A model generated the notes under the pieces. That model did no database searches and was not told the DNA's origin. It saw nothing but the letters and a program-made list of their open reading frames with translations. A program made the translations under genes and the position numbers. Below are positions 6,229 through 48,964 of a stretch of DNA of 64,000 nt, piece by piece (position 1 is the stretch's first letter; the number at the start of each line of letters is the position of its first letter). The stretch lies in NCBI RefSeq assembly GCF_001677475.2, contig NZ_CP015229.1; one strand, written 5' to 3'. The stretch is from Escherichia coli. Its GTDB lineage: Bacteria > Pseudomonadota > Gammaproteobacteria > Enterobacterales > Enterobacteriaceae.

Positions 6229-7446
6229 ATGTCCCCCATTGAAAAATCCAGCAAATTAGAGAATGTCTGTTATGACATCCGTGGTCCGGTGCTGAAAGAA
6301 GCAAAACGCCTGGAAGAAGAAGGTAACAAGGTACTGAAACTGAACATCGGCAACCCAGCCCCGTTCGGTTTTGACGCGCCAGATGAAATCCTCGTTGACG
6401 TGATACGCAACCTGCCTACCGCTCAAGGGTATTGCGATTCCAAAGGTCTTTACTCCGCGCGTAAAGCCATCATGCAGCACTACCAGGCTCGTGGCATGCG
6501 TGATGTTACCGTGGAAGATATTTACATCGGCAATGGTGTATCGGAGCTTATCGTTCAGGCAATGCAGGCATTGCTGAACAGCGGGGACGAAATGTTGGTT
6601 CCTGCACCAGATTACCCACTATGGACCGCGGCGGTTTCGCTTTCCAGCGGTAAAGCGGTGCATTATCTTTGCGATGAATCCTCTGACTGGTTCCCGGACC
6701 TCGATGATATTCGCGCTAAAATTACGCCTCGTACGCGTGGAATCGTTATTATCAACCCAAATAACCCAACCGGCGCGGTATATTCCAAAGAGCTTTTAAT
6801 GGAGATTGTGGAGATTGCACGTCAGCATAATCTCATTATCTTCGCCGATGAAATTTATGACAAAATTCTCTACGACGACGCTGAGCATCACTCAATTGCG
6901 CCGCTGGCACCTGACCTGCTGACCATTACCTTTAACGGACTGTCGAAAACGTACCGCGTTGCAGGCTTCCGTCAGGGGTGGATGGTGTTGAACGGGCCGA
7001 AAAAACACGCCAAAGGCTACATCGAAGGTCTGGAAATGCTGGCTTCAATGCGCCTGTGTGCTAACGTTCCTGCGCAACACGCCATTCAGACCGCGCTGGG
7101 TGGTTATCAGAGCATCAGTGAATTTATTACCCCTGGCGGTCGTCTTTATGAGCAGCGTAACCGCGCGTGGGAATTGATCAACGATATTCCGGGCGTTTCC
7201 TGCGTGAAACCTCGTGGTGCGCTGTATATGTTCCCGAAAATCGACGCCAAACGCTTTAACATTCACGACGATCAGAAAATGGTGCTGGATTTCCTGTTGC
7301 AGGAAAAAGTTCTGTTGGTGCAAGGGACGGCATTCAACTGGCCGTGGCCGGATCACTTCCGCATTGTCACGCTACCGCGTGTCGATGATATCGAGCTGTC
7401 TTTGAGCAAGTTCGCGCGTTTCCTTTCTGGTTATCATCAGCTGTAA
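6229..7446 (+). CDS. alaA: Glutamate-pyruvate aminotransferase (class I PLP aminotransferase)
   Basis: 405-aa ORF with aminotransferase class I motifs (NPNNPTGAVY, SKTYRVAGFRQGW); former yfbQ position. Confidence 0.93.
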   Translation: MSPIEKSSKLENVCYDIRGPVLKEAKRLEEEGNKVLKLNIGNPAPFGFDAPDEILVDVIRNLPTAQGYCDSKGLYSARKAIMQHYQARGMRDVTVEDIYIGNGVSELIVQAMQALLNSGDEMLVPAPDYPLWTAAVSLSSGKAVHYLCDESSDWFPDLDDIRAKITPRTRGIVIINPNNPTGAVYSKELLMEIVEIARQHNLIIFADEIYDKILYDDAEHHSIAPLAPDLLTITFNGLSKTYRVAGFRQGWMVLNGPKKHAKGYIEGLEMLASMRLCANVPAQHAIQTALGGYQSISEFITPGGRLYEQRNRAWELINDIPGVSCVKPRGALYMFPKIDAKRFNIHDDQKMVLDFLLQEKVLLVQGTAFNWPWPDHFRIVTLPRVDDIELSLSKFARFLSGYHQL

Positions 7447-13414: not shown

Positions 13415-15559
13415 GTGTCCCGTATTATTATGCTGATCCCTACCGGAACCAGCGTCGGTCTGACCAGCGTCAGCCTTGGCGTGATCCGTGCAATGGAACG
13501 CAAAGGCGTTCGTCTGAGCGTTTTCAAACCTATCGCTCAGCCGCGTACCGGTGGCGATGCGCCCGATCAGACTACGACTATCGTGCGTGCGAACTCTTCC
13601 ACCACGACGGCCGCTGAACCGCTGAAAATGAGCTACGTTGAAGGTCTGCTTTCCAGCAATCAGAAAGATGTGCTGATGGAAGAGATCGTCGCAAACTACC
13701 ACGCTAACACCAAAGACGCTGAAGTCGTTCTGGTTGAAGGTCTGGTCCCGACACGTAAGCACCAGTTTGCCCAGTCTCTGAACTACGAAATCGCTAAAAC
13801 GCTGAATGCGGAAATCGTCTTCGTTATGTCTCAGGGCACTGACACCCCGGAACAGCTGAAAGAGCGTATCGAACTGACCCGCAACAGCTTCGGCGGTGCC
13901 AAAAACACCAACATCACCGGCGTTATCGTTAACAAACTGAATGCACCGGTTGATGAACAGGGTCGTACTCGCCCGGATCTGTCCGAGATTTTCGACGACT
14001 CTTCCAAAGCTAAAGTAAACAATGTTGATCCGGCGAAGCTGCAAGAATCCAGCCCGCTGCCGGTTCTCGGCGCTGTGCCGTGGAGCTTTGACCTGATCGC
14101 GACTCGTGCGATCGATATGGCTCGCCACCTGAATGCGACCATCATCAACGAAGGCGACATCAATACTCGCCGCGTTAAATCCGTCACTTTCTGCGCACGC
14201 AGCATTCCGCACATGCTGGAGCACTTCCGTGCCGGTTCTCTGCTGGTGACTTCCGCAGACCGCCCTGACGTGCTGGTTGCCGCTTGCCTGGCTGCCATGA
14301 ACGGCGTAGAAATCGCTGCCCTGCTGCTGACTGGCGGCTACGAAATGGACGCGCGCATTTCTAAACTGTGCGAACGTGCTTTCGCTACCGGCCTGCCGGT
14401 ATTTATGGTGAACACCAATACCTGGCAGACTTCTCTGAGCCTGCAGAGCTTCAACCTGGAAGTTCCGGTTGACGATCACGAGCGTATCGAGAAAGTTCAG
14501 GAATACGTTGCTAACTACATCAACGCTGACTGGATCGATTCTCTGACTGCCACTTCTGAGCGCAGCCGTCGTCTGTCTCCGCCAGCGTTCCGTTATCAGC
14601 TGACTGAACTTGCGCGCAAAGCGGGCAAACGTATTGTTCTGCCGGAAGGTGACGAACCGCGTACCGTTAAAGCAGCCGCTATCTGTGCTGAACGTGGTAT
14701 CGCAACTTGCGTACTGCTGGGTAATCCGGCAGAGATCAACCGTGTTGCAGCGTCTCAGGGTGTAGAACTGGGTGCAGGCATTGAAATCGTTGATCCAGAA
14801 GTGGTTCGCGAAAGCTATGTTGGTCGTCTGGTCGAACTGCGTAAGAACAAAGGCATGACCGAAACCGTTGCCCGCGAACAGCTGGAAGATAACGTGGTTC
14901 TCGGTACGCTGATGCTGGAACAGGACGAAGTTGATGGTCTGGTTTCCGGTGCTGTTCACACCACCGCAAACACCATCCGTCCGCCGCTGCAGCTGATCAA
15001 AACGGCTCCGGGCAGCTCCCTGGTATCTTCCGTGTTCTTCATGCTGCTGCCAGAACAGGTTTACGTTTACGGTGACTGTGCGATCAACCCGGATCCGACC
15101 GCAGAACAGCTGGCAGAAATCGCGATTCAGTCCGCTGATTCCGCTGCGGCCTTCGGTATCGAACCGCGCGTTGCTATGCTCTCCTACTCCACCGGGACTT
15201 CTGGTGCTGGTAGCGACGTAGAAAAAGTTCGCGAAGCAACTCGTCTGGCGCAGGAAAAACGTCCTGACCTGATGATCGACGGTCCGCTGCAGTACGACGC
15301 TGCGGTAATGGCTGACGTTGCGAAATCCAAAGCGCCGAACTCTCCGGTTGCAGGTCGCGCTACCGTGTTCATCTTCCCGGATCTGAACACCGGTAACACC
15401 ACCTACAAAGCGGTACAGCGTTCTGCCGACCTGATCTCCATCGGGCCGATGCTGCAGGGTATGCGCAAGCCGGTTAACGACCTGTCCCGTGGCGCACTGG
15501 TTGACGATATCGTCTACACCATCGCGCTGACTGCGATTCAGTCTGCACAGCAGCAGTAA
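13415..15559 (+). CDS. pta: Phosphate acetyltransferase
   Basis: 714-aa ORF starting at GTG (translated M; N-terminus [26 protein letters not shown]), C-terminal PTA domain. Confidence 0.97.
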
Positions 15560-23913: not shown

Positions 23914-24596
23914 AGGTCAGCCCTCTTCACACCCACGGAGTAGCGGCGCTCAAGGAACAGCAGCACACCATTGGAAACGGTGGTGAAAACCAGGTAAATC
24001 ACGCCACAAACGATGGCGAAATAGAACGGTTCCCAGGTACTTTTGCCTGCCAGCTGCGTGGCTTTGACCACATCTTCCAGGCCAAGTAACGAAACCAGTG
24101 CGGTAGATTTAAGGATCACCTGCCAGTTGTTGCCAATGCCTGGCAGGGCGTAACGCATCATCGCCGGAAACATGATCCGCCGAAACACTTGCCCACGAGT
24201 AAAACCGAACGCCGTCGCCGCTTCTATATGTCCTTTCGGCACTGCCATAAAAGCACCACGGAACGTTTCGGTAAAATAAGCACCGTAGATAAAACCGAGA
24301 GTGATAATACCAGCGACCATCGGATCGATATCAATCTGCCCGACGCCCATCGCCTCCGTCACCGTGTTTAGCGCAATCTGCAAACCGTAGAAAATCAGCA
24401 GCATCAACACTAAGTCCGGCACGCCACGAATCAGCGTGGTGTACCCTTCGAAAATCAGCCCCGAAAGCCGATTTTGCGAGAGCTTACCGCCAGCGCCAAT
24501 TAAACCGATGATTACAGCGAGCACTACAGAGCTGATAGCCAGCTCCAGCGTGACGAGCGCACCCTGTAAAATAACACCTGAAAACCCATACAACAT
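23910..24596 (-). CDS. hisQ: Histidine ABC transporter permease
   Basis: 228-aa membrane ORF of the polar amino-acid permease family. Confidence 0.94.
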   Translation of the reverse strand: MLYGFSGVILQGALVTLELAISSVVLAVIIGLIGAGGKLSQNRLSGLIFEGYTTLIRGVPDLVLMLLIFYGLQIALNTVTEAMGVGQIDIDPMVAGIITLGFIYGAYFTETFRGAFMAVPKGHIEAATAFGFTRGQVFRRIMFPAMMRYALPGIGNNWQVILKSTALVSLLGLEDVVKATQLAGKSTWEPFYFAIVCGVIYLVFTTVSNGVLLFLERRYSVGVKRADL

Positions 24597-24625
24597 GCTG
24601 CCTGTCCTGTCGTGTGTGGTGAATT

Positions 24626-24665
24626 CCCGCCTCTTGTCTCCCTCCGGTTACCCGAAGGGAGCGGG
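24626..24665 (-). promoter_or_regulatory. Intercistronic stem-loop between hisJ and hisQ (REP-like mRNA stabiliser)
   Basis: cccgc...ctccctccgg-ttac-ccgaagggag...gcggg inverted repeat read directly in the 89-bp hisJ-hisQ spacer. Confidence 0.6.
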
Positions 24666-24685
24666 CTTTCTTTCACCGATGGCGA

Positions 24686-25468
24686 TTAACCACCATAAAC
24701 ATCAAAATCGAAGTACTTTTTCGCTAATTTCTCGTAAGTACCGTCAGCGCGCATTTCGGCAAAGGCTTTGTTCAGTGCCTCGCGCAGTTCGTTATCTTCT
24801 TTACGCAGGCCCATGCCGGTCCCTACGCCAAACAGTTTTTCATCTTTAACAGACGGGCCACCGAATTTGTAATCTTTACCGACGGGTTGTTTGAGGAAAC
24901 CTTCACTGGCAGCGACCTCATCCTGGAACGCGGCATCAATACGTCCGGCAGTCAGGTCAGAATAAATGTTGTCCTGCCCCTGATAAGAAACGATTTCAAT
25001 GCCTTTTGGTGCCCAATGTTCGTTACCGAACGTCTCCTGGGTGGTGCCCTGCAATACGCCTACCCGTTTGCCTTTCAGCGACTCGACTGTCGGCTGAATA
25101 TCGGAATTTTTCGCCACCACCAGACGAGAATCGGCAGCGTACAGTTTGTCGGTGAAGGCTATTTCTTGCTGACGTTTTTCCGTAATGGAAAGCGATGACA
25201 TGATGGCGTCAATCTTCTTCGCTTTTAAGGACGGGATTAACGCATCCAGCGGGTTTTCGACAAACGTACATTGCGTATTGATGCGCTTGCACAACTCCTT
25301 CGCCAGATCGATATCGAAGCCAACCAGTTCGCCTTGTGAATTTTTTGATTCAAAGGGCGCATAGGTCGGGTCGGTACCGATGCGGATGTTTTGCGGAATC
25401 TCAGCAAATGCCGCAGTTGCGCTGGAGAAGGCCAGAACCAGAGAGAGCGATAGCACCAGTTTTTTCAT
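24686..25468 (-). CDS. hisJ: Histidine-binding periplasmic protein
   Basis: 260-aa ORF with signal peptide; paralogous to adjacent argT. Confidence 0.95.
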
Positions 25469-25688
25469 AATGTCCTCAACTGACAGTCTTTTTATAGGGA
25501 ATATTTACAGGTTTGTTACACTTATCGTGCCATAAAATTGACCATCAAGGCAAAATATCCCGCCCCGTTAGATGTATTATTTTTCATTAAAAATGCTTAA
25601 GTATGCATTTCAATGCACCACGATAGTGCAACAAACCTGGCGTGCACCATGATGATCATTCCATCAGGTACAGCTTCCCAGCGACGTA

Positions 25689-26471
25689 TCAGTCACCGTA
25701 GACATTAAAGTCGAAATACTTTTTCGCCATCTTGTCGTAGGTGCCATCCTGACGCAGCTCGCCAAGCGCCTTATTAAACGCAGCCGTCAGTTCAGCATCA
25801 TCTTTACGTAGCCCTACACCGGTGCCGTCACCGAAGTATTTTTTGTCTTTCACTGATGAGCCAGCAAAGGCGAACTCTTTACCGGCGGGTTGCTTGAGGA
25901 ATCCTTCGCTGGCAGCAACCTCATCTTGTAACGCAGCATCCAGACGTCCTGCAGCCAGATCGGAATAGACCAAATCCTGGTTGGCATAGGCCACCACATC
26001 CACGCCTTTGCTACGCCAGGTCTCGTTAGCGTAAGCTTCCTGGGTTGATCCCTGCAGCACACCCACATGTTTACCTTTCAGTGAATCCAGCGTTGGCTGA
26101 ATCGGTGAACCTTTGGCAGCAATCAAACGAGAATCTGCGGCGTACAGCTTGTCGGAGAAAGCAATCTCCTGCTGACGTTTATCGGTAATGGAAAGCGACG
26201 AAATAATAGCGTCGATTTTTTTCGCTTTCAGTGAGGGAATCAGCGCGTCAAAGTCACTGGCAACCCAGGTACATTTCACCTGCATCCGTTTGCACATCTC
26301 GTTACCGAGATCGATATCAAAGCCAACAAAATCACCTTTAGCATCTTTCGACGAGAACGGCGCATAGGTGGTATCGGTTCCGATACGTACCGTCTCCGGT
26401 AGCGCCGCATAGCTGGAAGCCGCTGCGGAGAGACCGACTAACAAAGACAGAGCGAGAATCGACTTCTTCAT
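25689..26471 (-). CDS. argT: Lysine/arginine/ornithine-binding periplasmic protein
   Basis: 260-aa ORF with signal peptide, about 70 percent identical to hisJ by eye. Confidence 0.95.
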
Positions 26472-26539
26472 ACATAACCCTCAAGTGAAAATGGCTTTTT
26501 TATGTTGTGTATTGTGTTGTGTGTTTGCAGGCTCTTTCA

Positions 26540-26555
26540 TGCAGGTCTTATGCCA
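26540..26555 (-). promoter_or_regulatory. Candidate sigma54 (-24/-12) promoter for argT
   Basis: Minus-strand reading TGGCATaagacCTGCA matches the TGGCAC-N5-TTGCA class with correct GG-to-GC spacing; about 70 bp upstream of argT start. Confidence 0.55.
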
Positions 26556-26736
26556 TCTTGACGACAACAGTAACATTCAACGTTAAATATGTTAATAAGA
26601 CGTTGCATTATTGTCCTGAAGTTGAAGATAGCAGGTATAGCGGTTGAATCGCAGCGTTTCGATTGAATGGCAGAAACAAAATGTCGAGGATTTGATCGCG
26701 GTTGCAAAATTGCCCTGAAACAGGGCAACAGCGGAG

Positions 26737-27306
26737 TTATGCGCCCTGCCAGCGGGCAAAGAGATCTTCAGGAAGCGTTATGGCGAATTGATCGAGTACA
26801 CGGTTAACCGTCTGATTTATCACATCATCAAGGGACTGCGGGCGATGATAAAACGCCGGAACGGGAGGCATAATCACCGCACCGATTTCTGCCGCCTGAG
26901 TCATTAAACGCAGATGGCCTAAGTGCAATGGTGTTTCACGCACGCAGAGCACCAACGGGCGACGCTCTTTCAGCACCACATCTGCCGCACGGGTCAGTAA
27001 ACCATCGGTATAGCTATGGACAATGCCGGAAAGGGTTTTGATTGAACAGGGTAAAATCACCATCCCCAGCGTCTGGAAAGAACCGGAAGAGATGCTGGCG
27101 GCAATATCGCGCGCATCGTGCGTCACATCGGCTAAAGCCTGCACTTCGCGCAGGGAAAAATCCGTTTCGAGGGATAAGGTCTGGCGCGCCGCCTGGCTCA
27201 TCACCAGATGCGTTTCGATATCTGTGACATCGCGCAGAACCTGTAATAAGCGCACGCCATAAATCGCGCCGCTGGCACCGCTGATGCCTACAATGAGTCG
27301 TTTCAT
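26737..27306 (-). CDS. ubiX: Flavin prenyltransferase UbiX
   Basis: 189-aa ORF, N-terminus MKRLIVGISGASGAIYGVRLLQVL. Confidence 0.95.
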   Translation of the reverse strand: MKRLIVGISGASGAIYGVRLLQVLRDVTDIETHLVMSQAARQTLSLETDFSLREVQALADVTHDARDIAASISSGSFQTLGMVILPCSIKTLSGIVHSYTDGLLTRAADVVLKERRPLVLCVRETPLHLGHLRLMTQAAEIGAVIMPPVPAFYHRPQSLDDVINQTVNRVLDQFAITLPEDLFARWQGA

Positions 27307-27400
27307 AAATAGTTGCCCTGTCAGACTTGCAGGCAGACTTTGCAGGATTTCGGCAGGAGTTGCAAGTCAGGGTGCCAGACCGGCACCCTGAGCGAAGGCA

Positions 27401-48100: not shown

Positions 48101-48964
48101 CAGCATATTCAATACATACTGGAATCGGCAGGTGGAGTCTATGGGCTGCCTGCTACTGGTATCAACACGTACTAACATATCGTGCAGTTGTCGATCGGTA
48201 ATAGGGTGCTGCGTTGGCGCCACAGTCACTTTAGCGTCATCACATCCTTCAGCAGTAAAGGTAATCAACTGATTTACAAAGCGACAATACGCGCCGCGTT
48301 CATCCATTTTACTGCCATCGCAGAGCTGACCATCTTTCATCAGGTAGGTCGATAAGTTTTGTTCAATCACTGACCCTGTTGATTTCAGATTCAAAACCTT
48401 ACTGTGTTCAACACGGCTGTCACTCCAGGAGATATCATAATTTGTTAATGGCTCACCTGGGCAGGTTGTTGTATAGGTTGTAGGCCCCCTATAATATTCA
48501 ACTCTCGGTTGATAATTATAATATACAGTATCAGTACTGTTCGCCGTCATCCCCACCATCCACGGACACGTCTCTGCCGAACCGTTGACCTCTATGGTCA
48601 TGACAACATCGGAGCATCTCCAGTTGAAATTGGGATCAATCTCTTTAACACCCGGACAATGGGAATCTTGTGTATAATCGCTCGAGCGGACTGTGATTTT
48701 GGGGGCTGGAATATTTCCCGGCCCGGTCCATGAATGATTAGGAAGATCCCCATACTTGACGCCATGGTCGGTATTTTGATAGTACACCCCATGATAAACC
48801 CCATTGGTAGTGAGTAAATCAAGGTAGAATTGAAGCGTTGCATTTCCGGCAATCGTACCATAGTAGACTGTCACATTATTATAGACTGCCCCCAGTTTCG
48901 CCTGAGCTCCCTGGCTAAAGAACAGCACCAGCATGGCGCAAAGCAGTAATCGTATTTTTTTCAT
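48098..48964 (-). CDS. yfcO: Fimbrial-operon-associated exported protein (DUF2544)
   Basis: ORF with signal peptide MKKIRLLLCAMLVLFFSQGAQA; start chosen at 48962-48964 (ORF track allows 48979). Confidence 0.78.
   Translation of the reverse strand: MKKIRLLLCAMLVLFFSQGAQAKLGAVYNNVTVYYGTIAGNATLQFYLDLLTTNGVYHGVYYQNTDHGVKYGDLPNHSWTGPGNIPAPKITVRSSDYTQDSHCPGVKEIDPNFNWRCSDVVMTIEVNGSAETCPWMVGMTANSTDTVYYNYQPRVEYYRGPTTYTTTCPGEPLTNYDISWSDSRVEHSKVLNLKSTGSVIEQNLSTYLMKDGQLCDGSKMDERGAYCRFVNQLITFTAEGCDDAKVTVAPTQHPITDRQLHDMLVRVDTSSRQPIDSTCRFQYVLNML

What the first reader, a model, noticed from the sequence alone, without database searches (positions are those of the whole stretch)
26500..26560. Candidate sigma54 promoter upstream of argT
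On the minus strand the sequence TGGCATaagacCTGCA (plus coordinates 26540-26555) matches the -24 GG / -12 GC architecture with correct spacing, about 70 bp upstream of the argT start. This fits nitrogen (NtrC) control of the periplasmic Lys/Arg/Orn-binding protein. No comparable element was evident for hisJ.
Basis: partly seen in the sequence, partly recalled or inferred. Interest (0 to 1): 0.35.

Follow-up and report, generated by a model that had tools for sequence, protein, structure and literature searches.

The report
Known sigma-54 promoter of argT

Summary
TGGCATAAGACCTGCA lies at 26555..26540 on the minus strand, with GG and GC at the canonical -24/-12 spacing, 68 nt before the argT ATG (26471). 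The 280 nt upstream of argT are identical to E. coli K-12 MG1655. The same 17-mer is sigma-54 ChIP-seq site OS22 in K-12 (PMC4591121). The 18-mer TGGCATAAGACCTGCATG is the "known" sigma-54/NtrC promoter of Salmonella argT (PMC3844500).

In 80 of 80 Enterobacteriaceae species sampled, TGGCAY-N5-NTGCW sits 50-89 nt upstream of argT. TGGCA and TGC are invariant; only spacer bases vary.

Three refinements:
- A sigma-70 start lies about 32 nt upstream, and bound sigma-54 holoenzyme represses it in nitrogen-rich conditions (PMC4551910).
- The argT upstream region has no consensus NtrC site, only a weak palindrome at -190. The window's best NtrC site lies upstream of hisJ.
hisJ has TGGCAC-N5-GTGTA (GT instead of GC at -12) plus a strong NtrC enhancer. 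In many other genera this promoter is near-perfect.

Verdict: real, functional and already known. Interest is low. The only open point is where NtrC binds to drive argTp in Escherichia.

The parts
26540..26556 (-). Sigma-54 core promoter argTp, 17-mer ATGGCATAAGACCTGCA. The -24 GG is at 26554-26553 and the -12 GC at 26542-26541.
   Evidence: Sequence; pattern and PWM. Identical to K-12 and equal to ChIP-seq site OS22. Invariant TGGCA/TGC in 80/80 species.
26529..26529 (-). Predicted sigma-54 transcription start, 19 bp downstream of the motif centre (equals NC_000913.3 2,427,849). It gives a 58-nt leader.
   Evidence: Rule and 'distance 58' from PMC4591121 Table 1. This is an inference; I could not reach any mapped 5' end.
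26472..26528 (-). argT 5' UTR. It holds a C/A-rich tract at 26527-26496 (the likely GcvB R1 target) and a Shine-Dalgarno GAGGG at 26482-26478.
   Evidence: Sequence; ACAAC repeats conserved in the alignment. argT is listed as a verified (Salmonella) / conserved (E. coli) GcvB R1 target in PMC9299463. Placing the pairing site in the C/A tract is my inference.
25689..26471 (-). argT CDS (260 aa, lysine/arginine/ornithine periplasmic binding protein).
   Evidence: ORF, translation, RefSeq annotation of matching genomes.
26561..26595 (-). Upstream sigma-70 promoter of argT: -35 TTAACA at 26595-26590, a 17-bp spacer with TG at 26575-26574, -10 TACTGT at 26572-26567, and a start near 26561.
   Evidence: PMC4551910 Table S3 places the sigma-54 motif at +6 to +22 of the sigma-70 start and gives an rpoN/vector expression ratio of 23%. 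The hexamer assignment is my reading. The -10 region is not conserved outside Escherichia, and the generic sigma-70 scan did not flag it.
26581..26607 (-). Conserved A/T-rich block TGCAACgTcTTATTAACAtATTTAACG, at -52 to -78 from the sigma-54 start. No factor is assigned; it could be a bend or an architectural site.
   Evidence: Footprint over 81 sequences. No IHF core match with up to 1 mismatch.
26625..26705 (-). Three further conserved upstream blocks with no assigned factor: 26635-26625 CCTGCTATCTT, 26655-26647 GCTGCGaTT, and 26705-26679 GCAACCGCGATCAAATCCTCGACATTT.
26710..26728 (-). Palindrome TTGCCCTGTTTCAGGGCAA followed by TTTTG, just after the ubiX stop codon. It looks like the ubiX terminator and is also the only weak NtrC-like site upstream of argT, centred at about -190.
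   Evidence: RNA hairpin of -15.1 kcal/mol, z = -3.2. Stem changes in other genera keep the pairing (by eye). NtrC PWM score 9.3 bits, 8th best in the window; 6 of 14 mismatches to the consensus.
25614..25659 (-). NtrC enhancer upstream of hisJ, about 0.9 kb downstream of argTp. TGCACTATCGTGGTGCA at 25630-25614 has 1 mismatch; ATGATCATCATGGTGCA at 25659-25643 has one perfect half-site (TGGTGCA) and a degenerate other half (4 mismatches in all).
   Evidence: Best NtrC consensus match of the whole window. It coincides with the strong NtrC ChIP-seq peak assigned to hisJQMP (23.7-fold). Conserved across genera.
25517..25533 (-). Sigma-54-like element upstream of hisJ, ATGGCACGATAAGTGTA. The -24 element is perfect; the -12 dinucleotide is GT instead of GC. 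It ends 48 nt before the hisJ ATG (25468).
   Evidence: Third-best PWM hit, 12.8 bits. TGGCAC is kept in 76/76 scorable loci, but GC at -12 in only 40/76. In Citrobacter and others it reads ATGGCACGATAACTGCA at 18.2 bits. There is no sigma-54 ChIP-seq peak at hisJ in K-12.
25586..25613 (-). hisJ sigma-70 promoter TTGAAA-16-TTTAAT. Its -35 hexamer abuts the NtrC site.
   Evidence: PMC3946193 lists TTGAAA-16-TTTAAT for hisJQMP. I located it.

Best explanation
This is argTp, the sigma-54-dependent promoter of argT.

Sigma-54 RNA polymerase holoenzyme binds the -24 GG (26554-53) and -12 GC (26542-41) and sits there as a closed complex. Under nitrogen limitation, phosphorylated NtrC contacts it by DNA looping. 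NtrC uses ATP hydrolysis to open the promoter. Transcription then starts at about 26529 and yields an mRNA with a 58-nt C/A-rich leader.

In nitrogen-rich growth, argT is read instead from a sigma-70 start about 32 nt upstream. The parked sigma-54 holoenzyme then acts as an obstacle that lowers expression.

Shown: sequence, spacing, conservation, in vivo and in vitro sigma-54 binding, rpoN-dependent expression in Salmonella, and repression of the sigma-70 start. Inferred: the exact sigma-54 start point and the place where NtrC binds.
For: The motif and its spacing are shown. The PWM rank is 2nd in the window, with 0.003 hits expected in the upstream region. The sequence is 100% identical to K-12 over 280 nt, so K-12 data apply directly.

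K-12 data:
- Sigma-54 ChIP-seq site OS22, ATGGCATAAGACCTGCA, FAT 12, and the only high-stringency site in the K-12 interval covered by the window.
- An RpoN-holoenzyme gSELEX peak at argT, 61% without NtrC and 55% with it.
- NtrC ChIP-seq signal over the promoter in nitrogen-starved cells.
- An ectopic argTp-lacZ fusion rises 2.4-fold and native argT 3.2-fold when glnK is deleted.

Salmonella LT2 has the 18-mer TGGCATAAGACCTGCATG, is ChIP-chip positive, shows 3.5-fold rpoN-dependent expression, and is listed as 'known'. PMC6640053 states the promoter is sigma-54/NtrC dependent.

Conservation: 80/80 species keep TGGCA and TGC, and variation is confined to spacer positions 9, 11 and 12. Against K-12 there are 0 differences in the 265-nt intergenic region but 18 in the 783-nt argT CDS.

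Sigma-70 interplay.
Against: EcoCyc listed the E. coli promoter as predicted, not experimentally confirmed ('P' in PMC4591121 Table 1). I could not reach any mapped sigma-54 5' end.

No consensus NtrC site lies in 26557-26736. The NtrC ChIP signal at argT is weak (5.4-fold) and was added by eye. NtrC-alone gSELEX did not list argT among its intergenic-spacer sites at the 40% cut-off.

In one data set argT expression is higher without sigma-54, so in rich conditions the site's net effect is negative.

The -12 region reads CTGCA rather than TTGCA, and the -24 reads TGGCAT rather than TGGCAC. The PWM score is therefore slightly below the median of verified sites.
Confidence: 0.95

Rival explanations
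1. The site is mainly a 'repressive' sigma-54 binding site. Holoenzyme parked at +6..+22 of the sigma-70 promoter blocks it, and productive sigma-54 transcription is minor in E. coli.
For: argT reads in cells with rpoN are 23% of those in cells lacking it, and sigma-54 lowers sigma-70 initiation in vitro by 10-60% across the four promoters tested, argT among them. PMC8743547 proposes a general repressive class of RpoN promoters bound without an enhancer; argT is bound by holoenzyme alone at 61%. NtrC occupancy at argT is weak.
Against: A heterologous activator (DctD250) raises argT 3.5-fold in an rpoN-dependent way in Salmonella, which has the same 18-mer. argT is cited as NtrC-activated under nitrogen limitation. 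argTp fusions respond to raised NtrC-P. The sigma-70 -10 region is not conserved outside Escherichia while the -24/-12 element is invariant, so repression of that sigma-70 promoter cannot explain the conservation. The two roles are not exclusive.
Confidence: 0.2
2. In Escherichia, argTp is driven mainly from the strong NtrC enhancer in front of hisJ (25614-25659), about 0.9 kb downstream, rather than from sites in its own upstream region.
For: No NtrC consensus site lies upstream of argT, while the window's best site lies upstream of hisJ. NtrC ChIP is 23.7-fold at hisJ against 5.4-fold at argT. Sigma-54 ChIP finds argT but not hisJ. Other genera carry good NtrC-like palindromes upstream of argT; in Escherichia the distal one is deleted and the proximal one has diverged from the consensus. 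From general knowledge of glnAp2 work (not re-read here), NtrC enhancers can act from a distance and from either side.
Against: An argTp-lacZ fusion moved to the lac locus still responds 2.4-fold to glnK loss, against 3.2-fold for the native gene. A plasmid fragment spanning 26727..26530 alone gave the strongest signal of 12 sigma-54 promoters tested. Neither construct's sigma-54 dependence or exact extent is documented in what I could read.
Confidence: 0.12
3. The match is a chance resemblance with no function.
For: GG-N10-GC alone is uninformative. Random sequence yields about 1.4 PWM hits of this strength per 64 kb. The top PWM hit of the window (53580-53596) is intragenic and lacks GG.
Against: Correct strand and position upstream of a known Ntr gene; 80/80 conservation with a spacer-only variation pattern; direct ChIP-seq, ChIP-chip and gSELEX binding.
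Confidence: 0.01

Closest known systems
E. coli K-12 argTp (EcoCyc-predicted sigma-54 promoter; ChIP-seq site OS22 of Bonocora et al. 2015)
   Same: Identical sequence: 280/280 nt upstream of argT. Same 17-mer, same gene, same predicted start 58 nt before the ATG.
   Different: Nothing; it is the same element. The window's flanking coding regions differ from K-12 by 2-3%, almost all of it at third codon positions in argT.
Salmonella Typhimurium argT promoter (STM2355; Ames and Nikaido 1985, cited in PMC3844500)
   Same: Same 18-mer TGGCATAAGACCTGCATG, same gene, NtrC named as activator, rpoN-dependent.
   Different: In Salmonella, ubiX upstream of argT belongs to a separate sigma-54 operon (STM2360-56) with its own activator, which E. 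coli lacks. The leader and the -10-like region of the E. coli sigma-70 promoter differ.
glnAp1/glnAp2 arrangement of glnA
   Same: A sigma-54/NtrC promoter lies downstream of a sigma-70 promoter for the same gene, so the two polymerases interfere. Nitrogen limitation switches between them. The glnA details are established knowledge; the argT details come.
   Different: From general knowledge, glnAp2 has two strong consensus NtrC sites about 110 and 140 bp upstream that overlap glnAp1. argTp has no consensus site in its upstream region. The hisJ control region is the closer copy of glnA: its NtrC site abuts the sigma-70 -35 hexamer and a sigma-54-like element lies downstream.
hisJ (dhuA) control region, 1 kb downstream in the same window
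   Same: A paralogous binding-protein gene with a TGGCAY-N5 element at a similar distance from the ATG (48 against 68 nt). It belongs to the same NtrC regulon.
   Different: The hisJ -12 is GT in Escherichia and is variable across genera (GC in 40/76). The argT -12 is invariant in 80/80. hisJ has a strong NtrC enhancer but no sigma-54 ChIP peak. argT shows the reverse pattern.

Membership tests
sigma-54 (-24/-12) promoter | GG and GC dinucleotides separated by 10 bases, within TGGCAC-N5-TTGCA-like context | tested here: met
   TGGCAT-AAGAC-CTGCA at 26555..26540. PWM score 14.8 bits, within the range of 41 verified sites (8.7-21.6).
sigma-54 (-24/-12) promoter | Placed upstream of a gene and oriented towards it, at a distance typical of such promoters | tested here: met
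   Minus strand, same as argT. Predicted start is 58 nt before the ATG. Among the 42 verified intergenic-sense sites, most distances are 18-93 nt, with a tail above 100 nt.
sigma-54 (-24/-12) promoter | Bound by sigma-54 holoenzyme | tested here: met
   Met through the literature for an identical sequence: ChIP-seq OS22, gSELEX with purified holoenzyme, ChIP-chip in Salmonella. No binding assay can be run here.
sigma-54 (-24/-12) promoter | Transcription depends on rpoN and on an enhancer-binding ATPase | tested here: met
   Salmonella shows 3.5-fold higher expression in wild type than in delta-rpoN when DctD250 is present. E. coli is stated to be NtrC/sigma-54 dependent, and fusions respond to raised NtrC-P. 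Caveat: in nitrogen-rich cells rpoN lowers argT expression through the sigma-70 promoter.
sigma-54 (-24/-12) promoter | Transcript 5' end about 12 nt downstream of the GC | not testable with these tools
   No mapped sigma-54 5' end for argT was found in the papers I could read. The value 26529 is the prediction rule of PMC4591121.
sigma-54 (-24/-12) promoter | Conservation of the -24 and -12 elements across related species, with a free spacer | tested here: met
   80/80 species. Positions 1-5, 10 and 13-15 are invariant; positions 9, 11 and 12 vary. PMC4591121 supplementary file 6 also shows conserved PSSM scores.
NtrC (Ntr) regulon promoter | NtrC binding sites (TGCACCAnnnTGGTGCA) within about 100-250 bp upstream | tested here: inconclusive
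   No site with 4 or fewer of 14 mismatches in 26557-26736. The best hit is the palindrome at 26711-26727, 9.3 bits against 20.7 for the hisJ site. Good sites exist at the homologous place in 30/80 other species.
NtrC (Ntr) regulon promoter | NtrC occupancy in nitrogen-starved cells | tested here: met
   ChIP-seq peak 13 at 2425861-2425941 (U00096.2) overlaps the promoter. It is weak (5.4-fold) and was added by visual inspection.

The most novel reading that the evidence does not exclude
In Escherichia the two paralogous binding-protein genes may have swapped regulatory parts. argT keeps an invariant sigma-54 core promoter but has lost the NtrC enhancer that other Enterobacteriaceae carry upstream of it. 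hisJ keeps a near-perfect NtrC enhancer, but its sigma-54 core has decayed at -12 (GC to GT). The hisJ enhancer would then work backwards over about 0.9 kb to fire argTp, and hisJQMP would be induced largely by read-through from argTp.
Probability: 0.12. Interest if true: 0.4.

Novelty: already known. Interest (0 to 1): 0.08.

Why it matters
It confirms that the first-stage reader can recognise a genuine sigma-54 promoter from raw sequence. It adds no new biology, because argTp is documented, mapped by ChIP-seq, and even used as a metabolic-engineering part (PMC7045595).

The by-products are modestly useful. One is a clean comparison across 80 species: the argT -12 element is invariant, while the hisJ -12 element decays. 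The other is the observation that the NtrC input to argTp in Escherichia has no obvious local consensus site.

Tried and rejected
- **Bare GG-N10-GC pattern.** Uninformative: 677 matches against 627 expected.
- **Generic sigma-70 and terminator scan of 25400-26800.** Flagged neither the argT sigma-70 promoter nor the ubiX hairpin. Both were placed from the literature, manual reading and folding.
- **NtrC consensus scan of the argT upstream region.** Nothing with 4 or fewer mismatches. A PWM built from hisJ-region sites of 80 species gave only the terminator-like palindrome.
- **IHF core consensus WATCAANNNNTTR.** No match with up to 1 mismatch between the promoter and ubiX.
- **Rfam scan of 25400-26800.** No hits at E <= 1.
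- **Other strong sigma-54 PWM hits** (53580-53596, 6904-6920, 13476-13492). Their sequences are not among the published ChIP-seq motifs, and the two whose context I checked (53580-53596, 6904-6920) lie inside long ORFs. I set them aside as probable chance matches.
- **NtrC-like site at 48924-48940.** It lies inside long ORFs of what appears to be the yfc fimbrial cluster; set aside.
- **Original Salmonella and review papers** (Ames and Nikaido 1985, PMC554219; Reitzer and Schneider 2001, PMC99035). Not held. Searches for 'dhuA' and 'argTr' found nothing relevant. The 1980s mutational work and any primer-extension start site could not be checked.

Full report
**What is there.**
The window carries the E. 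coli region dedD-cvpA-purF-ubiX-argT-hisJQMP on the minus strand. argT is 25689..26471, hisJ is 24686..25468, and ubiX ends at 26737.

On the minus strand the sequence caagaTGGCATaagacCTGCAtgaaag places TGGCATAAGACCTGCA at 26555..26540. GG is at 26554-53 and GC at 26542-41. This is the register of the sigma-54 consensus TGGCAC-N5-TTGCA. The motif ends 68 nt before the argT ATG.

**Is it more than chance?**
The minimal GG-N10-GC pattern is worthless as evidence: 677 matches against 627 expected. The fuller pattern TGGCAY-N5-YTGCW occurs twice in the window against 0.46 expected.

I built a position weight matrix from 41 ChIP-seq-verified intergenic sigma-54 sites of E. coli (Table 1 of PMC4591121), leaving argT out.
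- The argT site scores 14.8 bits, second of all positions on both strands. The verified sites range from 8.7 to 21.6 bits.
- Random sequence gives about 1.4 hits of that strength per 64 kb, so the score alone is not decisive.
- Only about 0.003 hits are expected in the 265-nt argT upstream region on the right strand.

Conservation settles it. A protein-guided scan returned 80 argT loci, one per species, from about 25 genera of Enterobacteriaceae.
- All 80 carry TGGCAY-N5-NTGCW 50-89 nt (median 67) upstream of the argT ATG.
- TGGCA and T-G-C are invariant. Variation is confined to spacer positions 9, 11 and 12.
- That is the pattern expected of a constrained -24/-12 promoter.

**It is already known.**
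The 280 nt upstream of argT are 100% identical to K-12 MG1655 (window coordinate + 2,401,320 = NC_000913.3), so K-12 data apply directly.
- The 17-mer ATGGCATAAGACCTGCA is sigma-54 ChIP-seq site OS22. It is assigned to argT with a predicted start 58 nt before the ATG. At that time EcoCyc marked it as 'predicted'.
- It is the only high-stringency sigma-54 site in the K-12 interval that the window covers.
- Purified RpoN holoenzyme selects this region in gSELEX.
- Salmonella LT2 has the 18-mer TGGCATAAGACCTGCATG, and it is bound in ChIP-chip. argT there is 3.5-fold higher in wild type than in delta-rpoN when a promiscuous activator is supplied. The promoter is listed among the four 'known' sigma-54 operons, citing Ames and Nikaido 1985.
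- NtrC ChIP-seq in nitrogen-starved cells shows a weak signal over the promoter.
- argTp fusions respond to raised NtrC-P.
- argTp has been used as an engineering part.

**How it most likely works.**
Sigma-54 holoenzyme binds the -24 and -12 elements as a closed complex. NtrC-P, formed when nitrogen is scarce, remodels it with ATP hydrolysis. Transcription begins at about 26529. This start is a prediction; I found no mapped 5' end.

The leader is C/A-rich (26527-26496). argT is a verified GcvB R1 target in Salmonella and is listed as conserved in E. coli. The sRNA probably pairs there, which is my inference.

There is a second layer. PMC4551910 places the sigma-54 motif at +6 to +22 of a sigma-70 start. 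It finds argT reads in cells with rpoN at 23% of those in cells lacking it. It also shows sigma-54 reducing sigma-70 initiation in vitro.

Reading the sequence, the best candidate sigma-70 promoter is TTAACA (26595-90), a 17-bp spacer with an extended TG, then TACTGT (26572-67), starting near 26561. The -10 part is not conserved outside Escherichia.

So the site is both a nitrogen-starvation promoter and, in rich conditions, an obstacle to a housekeeping promoter. This resembles the glnAp1/glnAp2 logic.

**Where is the enhancer?**
- There is no match to TGCACCAnnnTGGTGCA with 4 or fewer of 14 mismatches in that stretch.
- A matrix built from hisJ-region sites of the 80 species finds only the palindrome TGCCCTGTTTCAGGGCA (26727-26711) at 9.3 bits.
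- That palindrome also folds as a terminator-like hairpin after ubiX (-15.1 kcal/mol, z = -3.2).

By contrast, the best NtrC site of the whole window is TGCACTATCGTGGTGCA at 25630-25614 (1 mismatch, 20.7 bits). A second site at 25659-25643 has a perfect TGGTGCA half and a degenerate other half (4 mismatches). Both lie upstream of hisJ and coincide with the strong NtrC ChIP-seq peak there.

In Enterobacter, Klebsiella, Raoultella, Pluralibacter, Pseudocitrobacter and others (30 of 80 species), one or two good NtrC-like palindromes sit just after the ubiX stop, about 190 and 220 bp upstream of the argT start. In Escherichia the distal one is deleted and the proximal one has diverged from the consensus.

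One reading is that argTp in Escherichia uses the hisJ enhancer from 0.9 kb downstream. Against this, two constructs remain active away from the hisJ enhancer. The argTp-lacZ fusion at the lac locus responds to glnK loss almost as well as the native gene. The plasmid fragment 26727..26530 also stays active. I rate the shared-enhancer idea at about 0.12.

**Other conserved upstream blocks.**
The footprint also shows conserved blocks at 26607-26581, 26635-26625, 26655-26647 and 26705-26679. I could assign no factor to them, and there is no IHF core match.

**The hisJ remark.**
- ATGGCACGATAAGTGTA at 25533..25517 ends 48 nt before the hisJ ATG. It is the third-best sigma-54 hit of the window.
- It has a perfect -24 element but GT instead of GC at -12.
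- Across genera, TGGCAC is kept in 76/76 scorable loci, but GC at -12 in only 40/76. In Citrobacter and several others the element reads ATGGCACGATAACTGCA at 18.2 bits.
- K-12 shows no sigma-54 ChIP-seq peak at hisJ.
- hisJ is described as sigma-70 transcribed in growing cells, from TTGAAA-16-TTTAAT (25613-25586), whose -35 hexamer abuts the NtrC site.
- So the hisJ control region looks like a glnA-type dual promoter whose sigma-54 half is weak or decaying in Escherichia.

**Verdict.**
The element is already known, so interest is low. The residual open question is the location of the NtrC input in Escherichia. It is small, and testable by the experiments listed under the decisive next steps.

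Noticed in passing
25517-25533 (-) and 25614-25659: hisJ has its own sigma-54-like element (TGGCAC-N5-GTGTA, GT at -12) and the window's best NtrC site upstream of it. In many other genera the core reads TGGCACGATAACTGCA. The -24 element is kept everywhere, but the -12 GC in only 40/76 loci.
   Followed up: yes
L021, L038, L049, L051, L063, L069 and others, about 255-295 nt upstream of the argT ATG; homologous to window 26711-26740: Many non-Escherichia genera carry one or two good NtrC-like palindromes just after the ubiX stop, for example CGCACTATAGTGGTGCA in Klebsiella pneumoniae and TGCACCAATCTGGTGCT in Pseudocitrobacter. In Escherichia the distal one is deleted and the proximal one has diverged from the consensus.
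   Followed up: partly
26581-26607, 26625-26635, 26647-26655, 26679-26705 (-): Four blocks upstream of argTp are conserved across about 25 genera and have no factor assigned. The 27-nt block GCAACCGCGATCAAATCCTCGACATTT is nearly invariant.
   Followed up: partly
26496-26527 (-): A C/A-rich tract with ACAAC repeats lies at the start of the argT leader and is conserved across genera. argT is a published GcvB sRNA target (R1 seed), so this is probably the pairing site.
   Followed up: partly
24280-27080: Against K-12 the window has 0/265 differences in the ubiX-argT intergenic region and 1/220 in the argT-hisJ one. It has 18/783 in argT (17 at third codon positions), 18/783 in hisJ and 11/344 in ubiX. 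The regulatory DNA is more conserved than synonymous sites. No complete E. coli genome matches 25400-27400 better than 98.5%.
   Followed up: partly
53580-53596 (-), 6904-6920 (+), 13476-13492 (+): Other strong sigma-54 PWM hits (15.6, 12.6 and 12.6 bits). None of the three sequences is among the published ChIP-seq motifs. The first lacks the GG, and the first two lie inside long ORFs. Probably chance.
   Followed up: partly
about 29730 (cvpA-dedD spacer), about 12090 and about 59630: Published RpoN-holoenzyme gSELEX lists low-intensity peaks (about 31-54%) at K-12 positions that map to these window coordinates: cvpA, yfbV/ackA and yfcZ/fadL. I did not look for motifs there.
   Followed up: no
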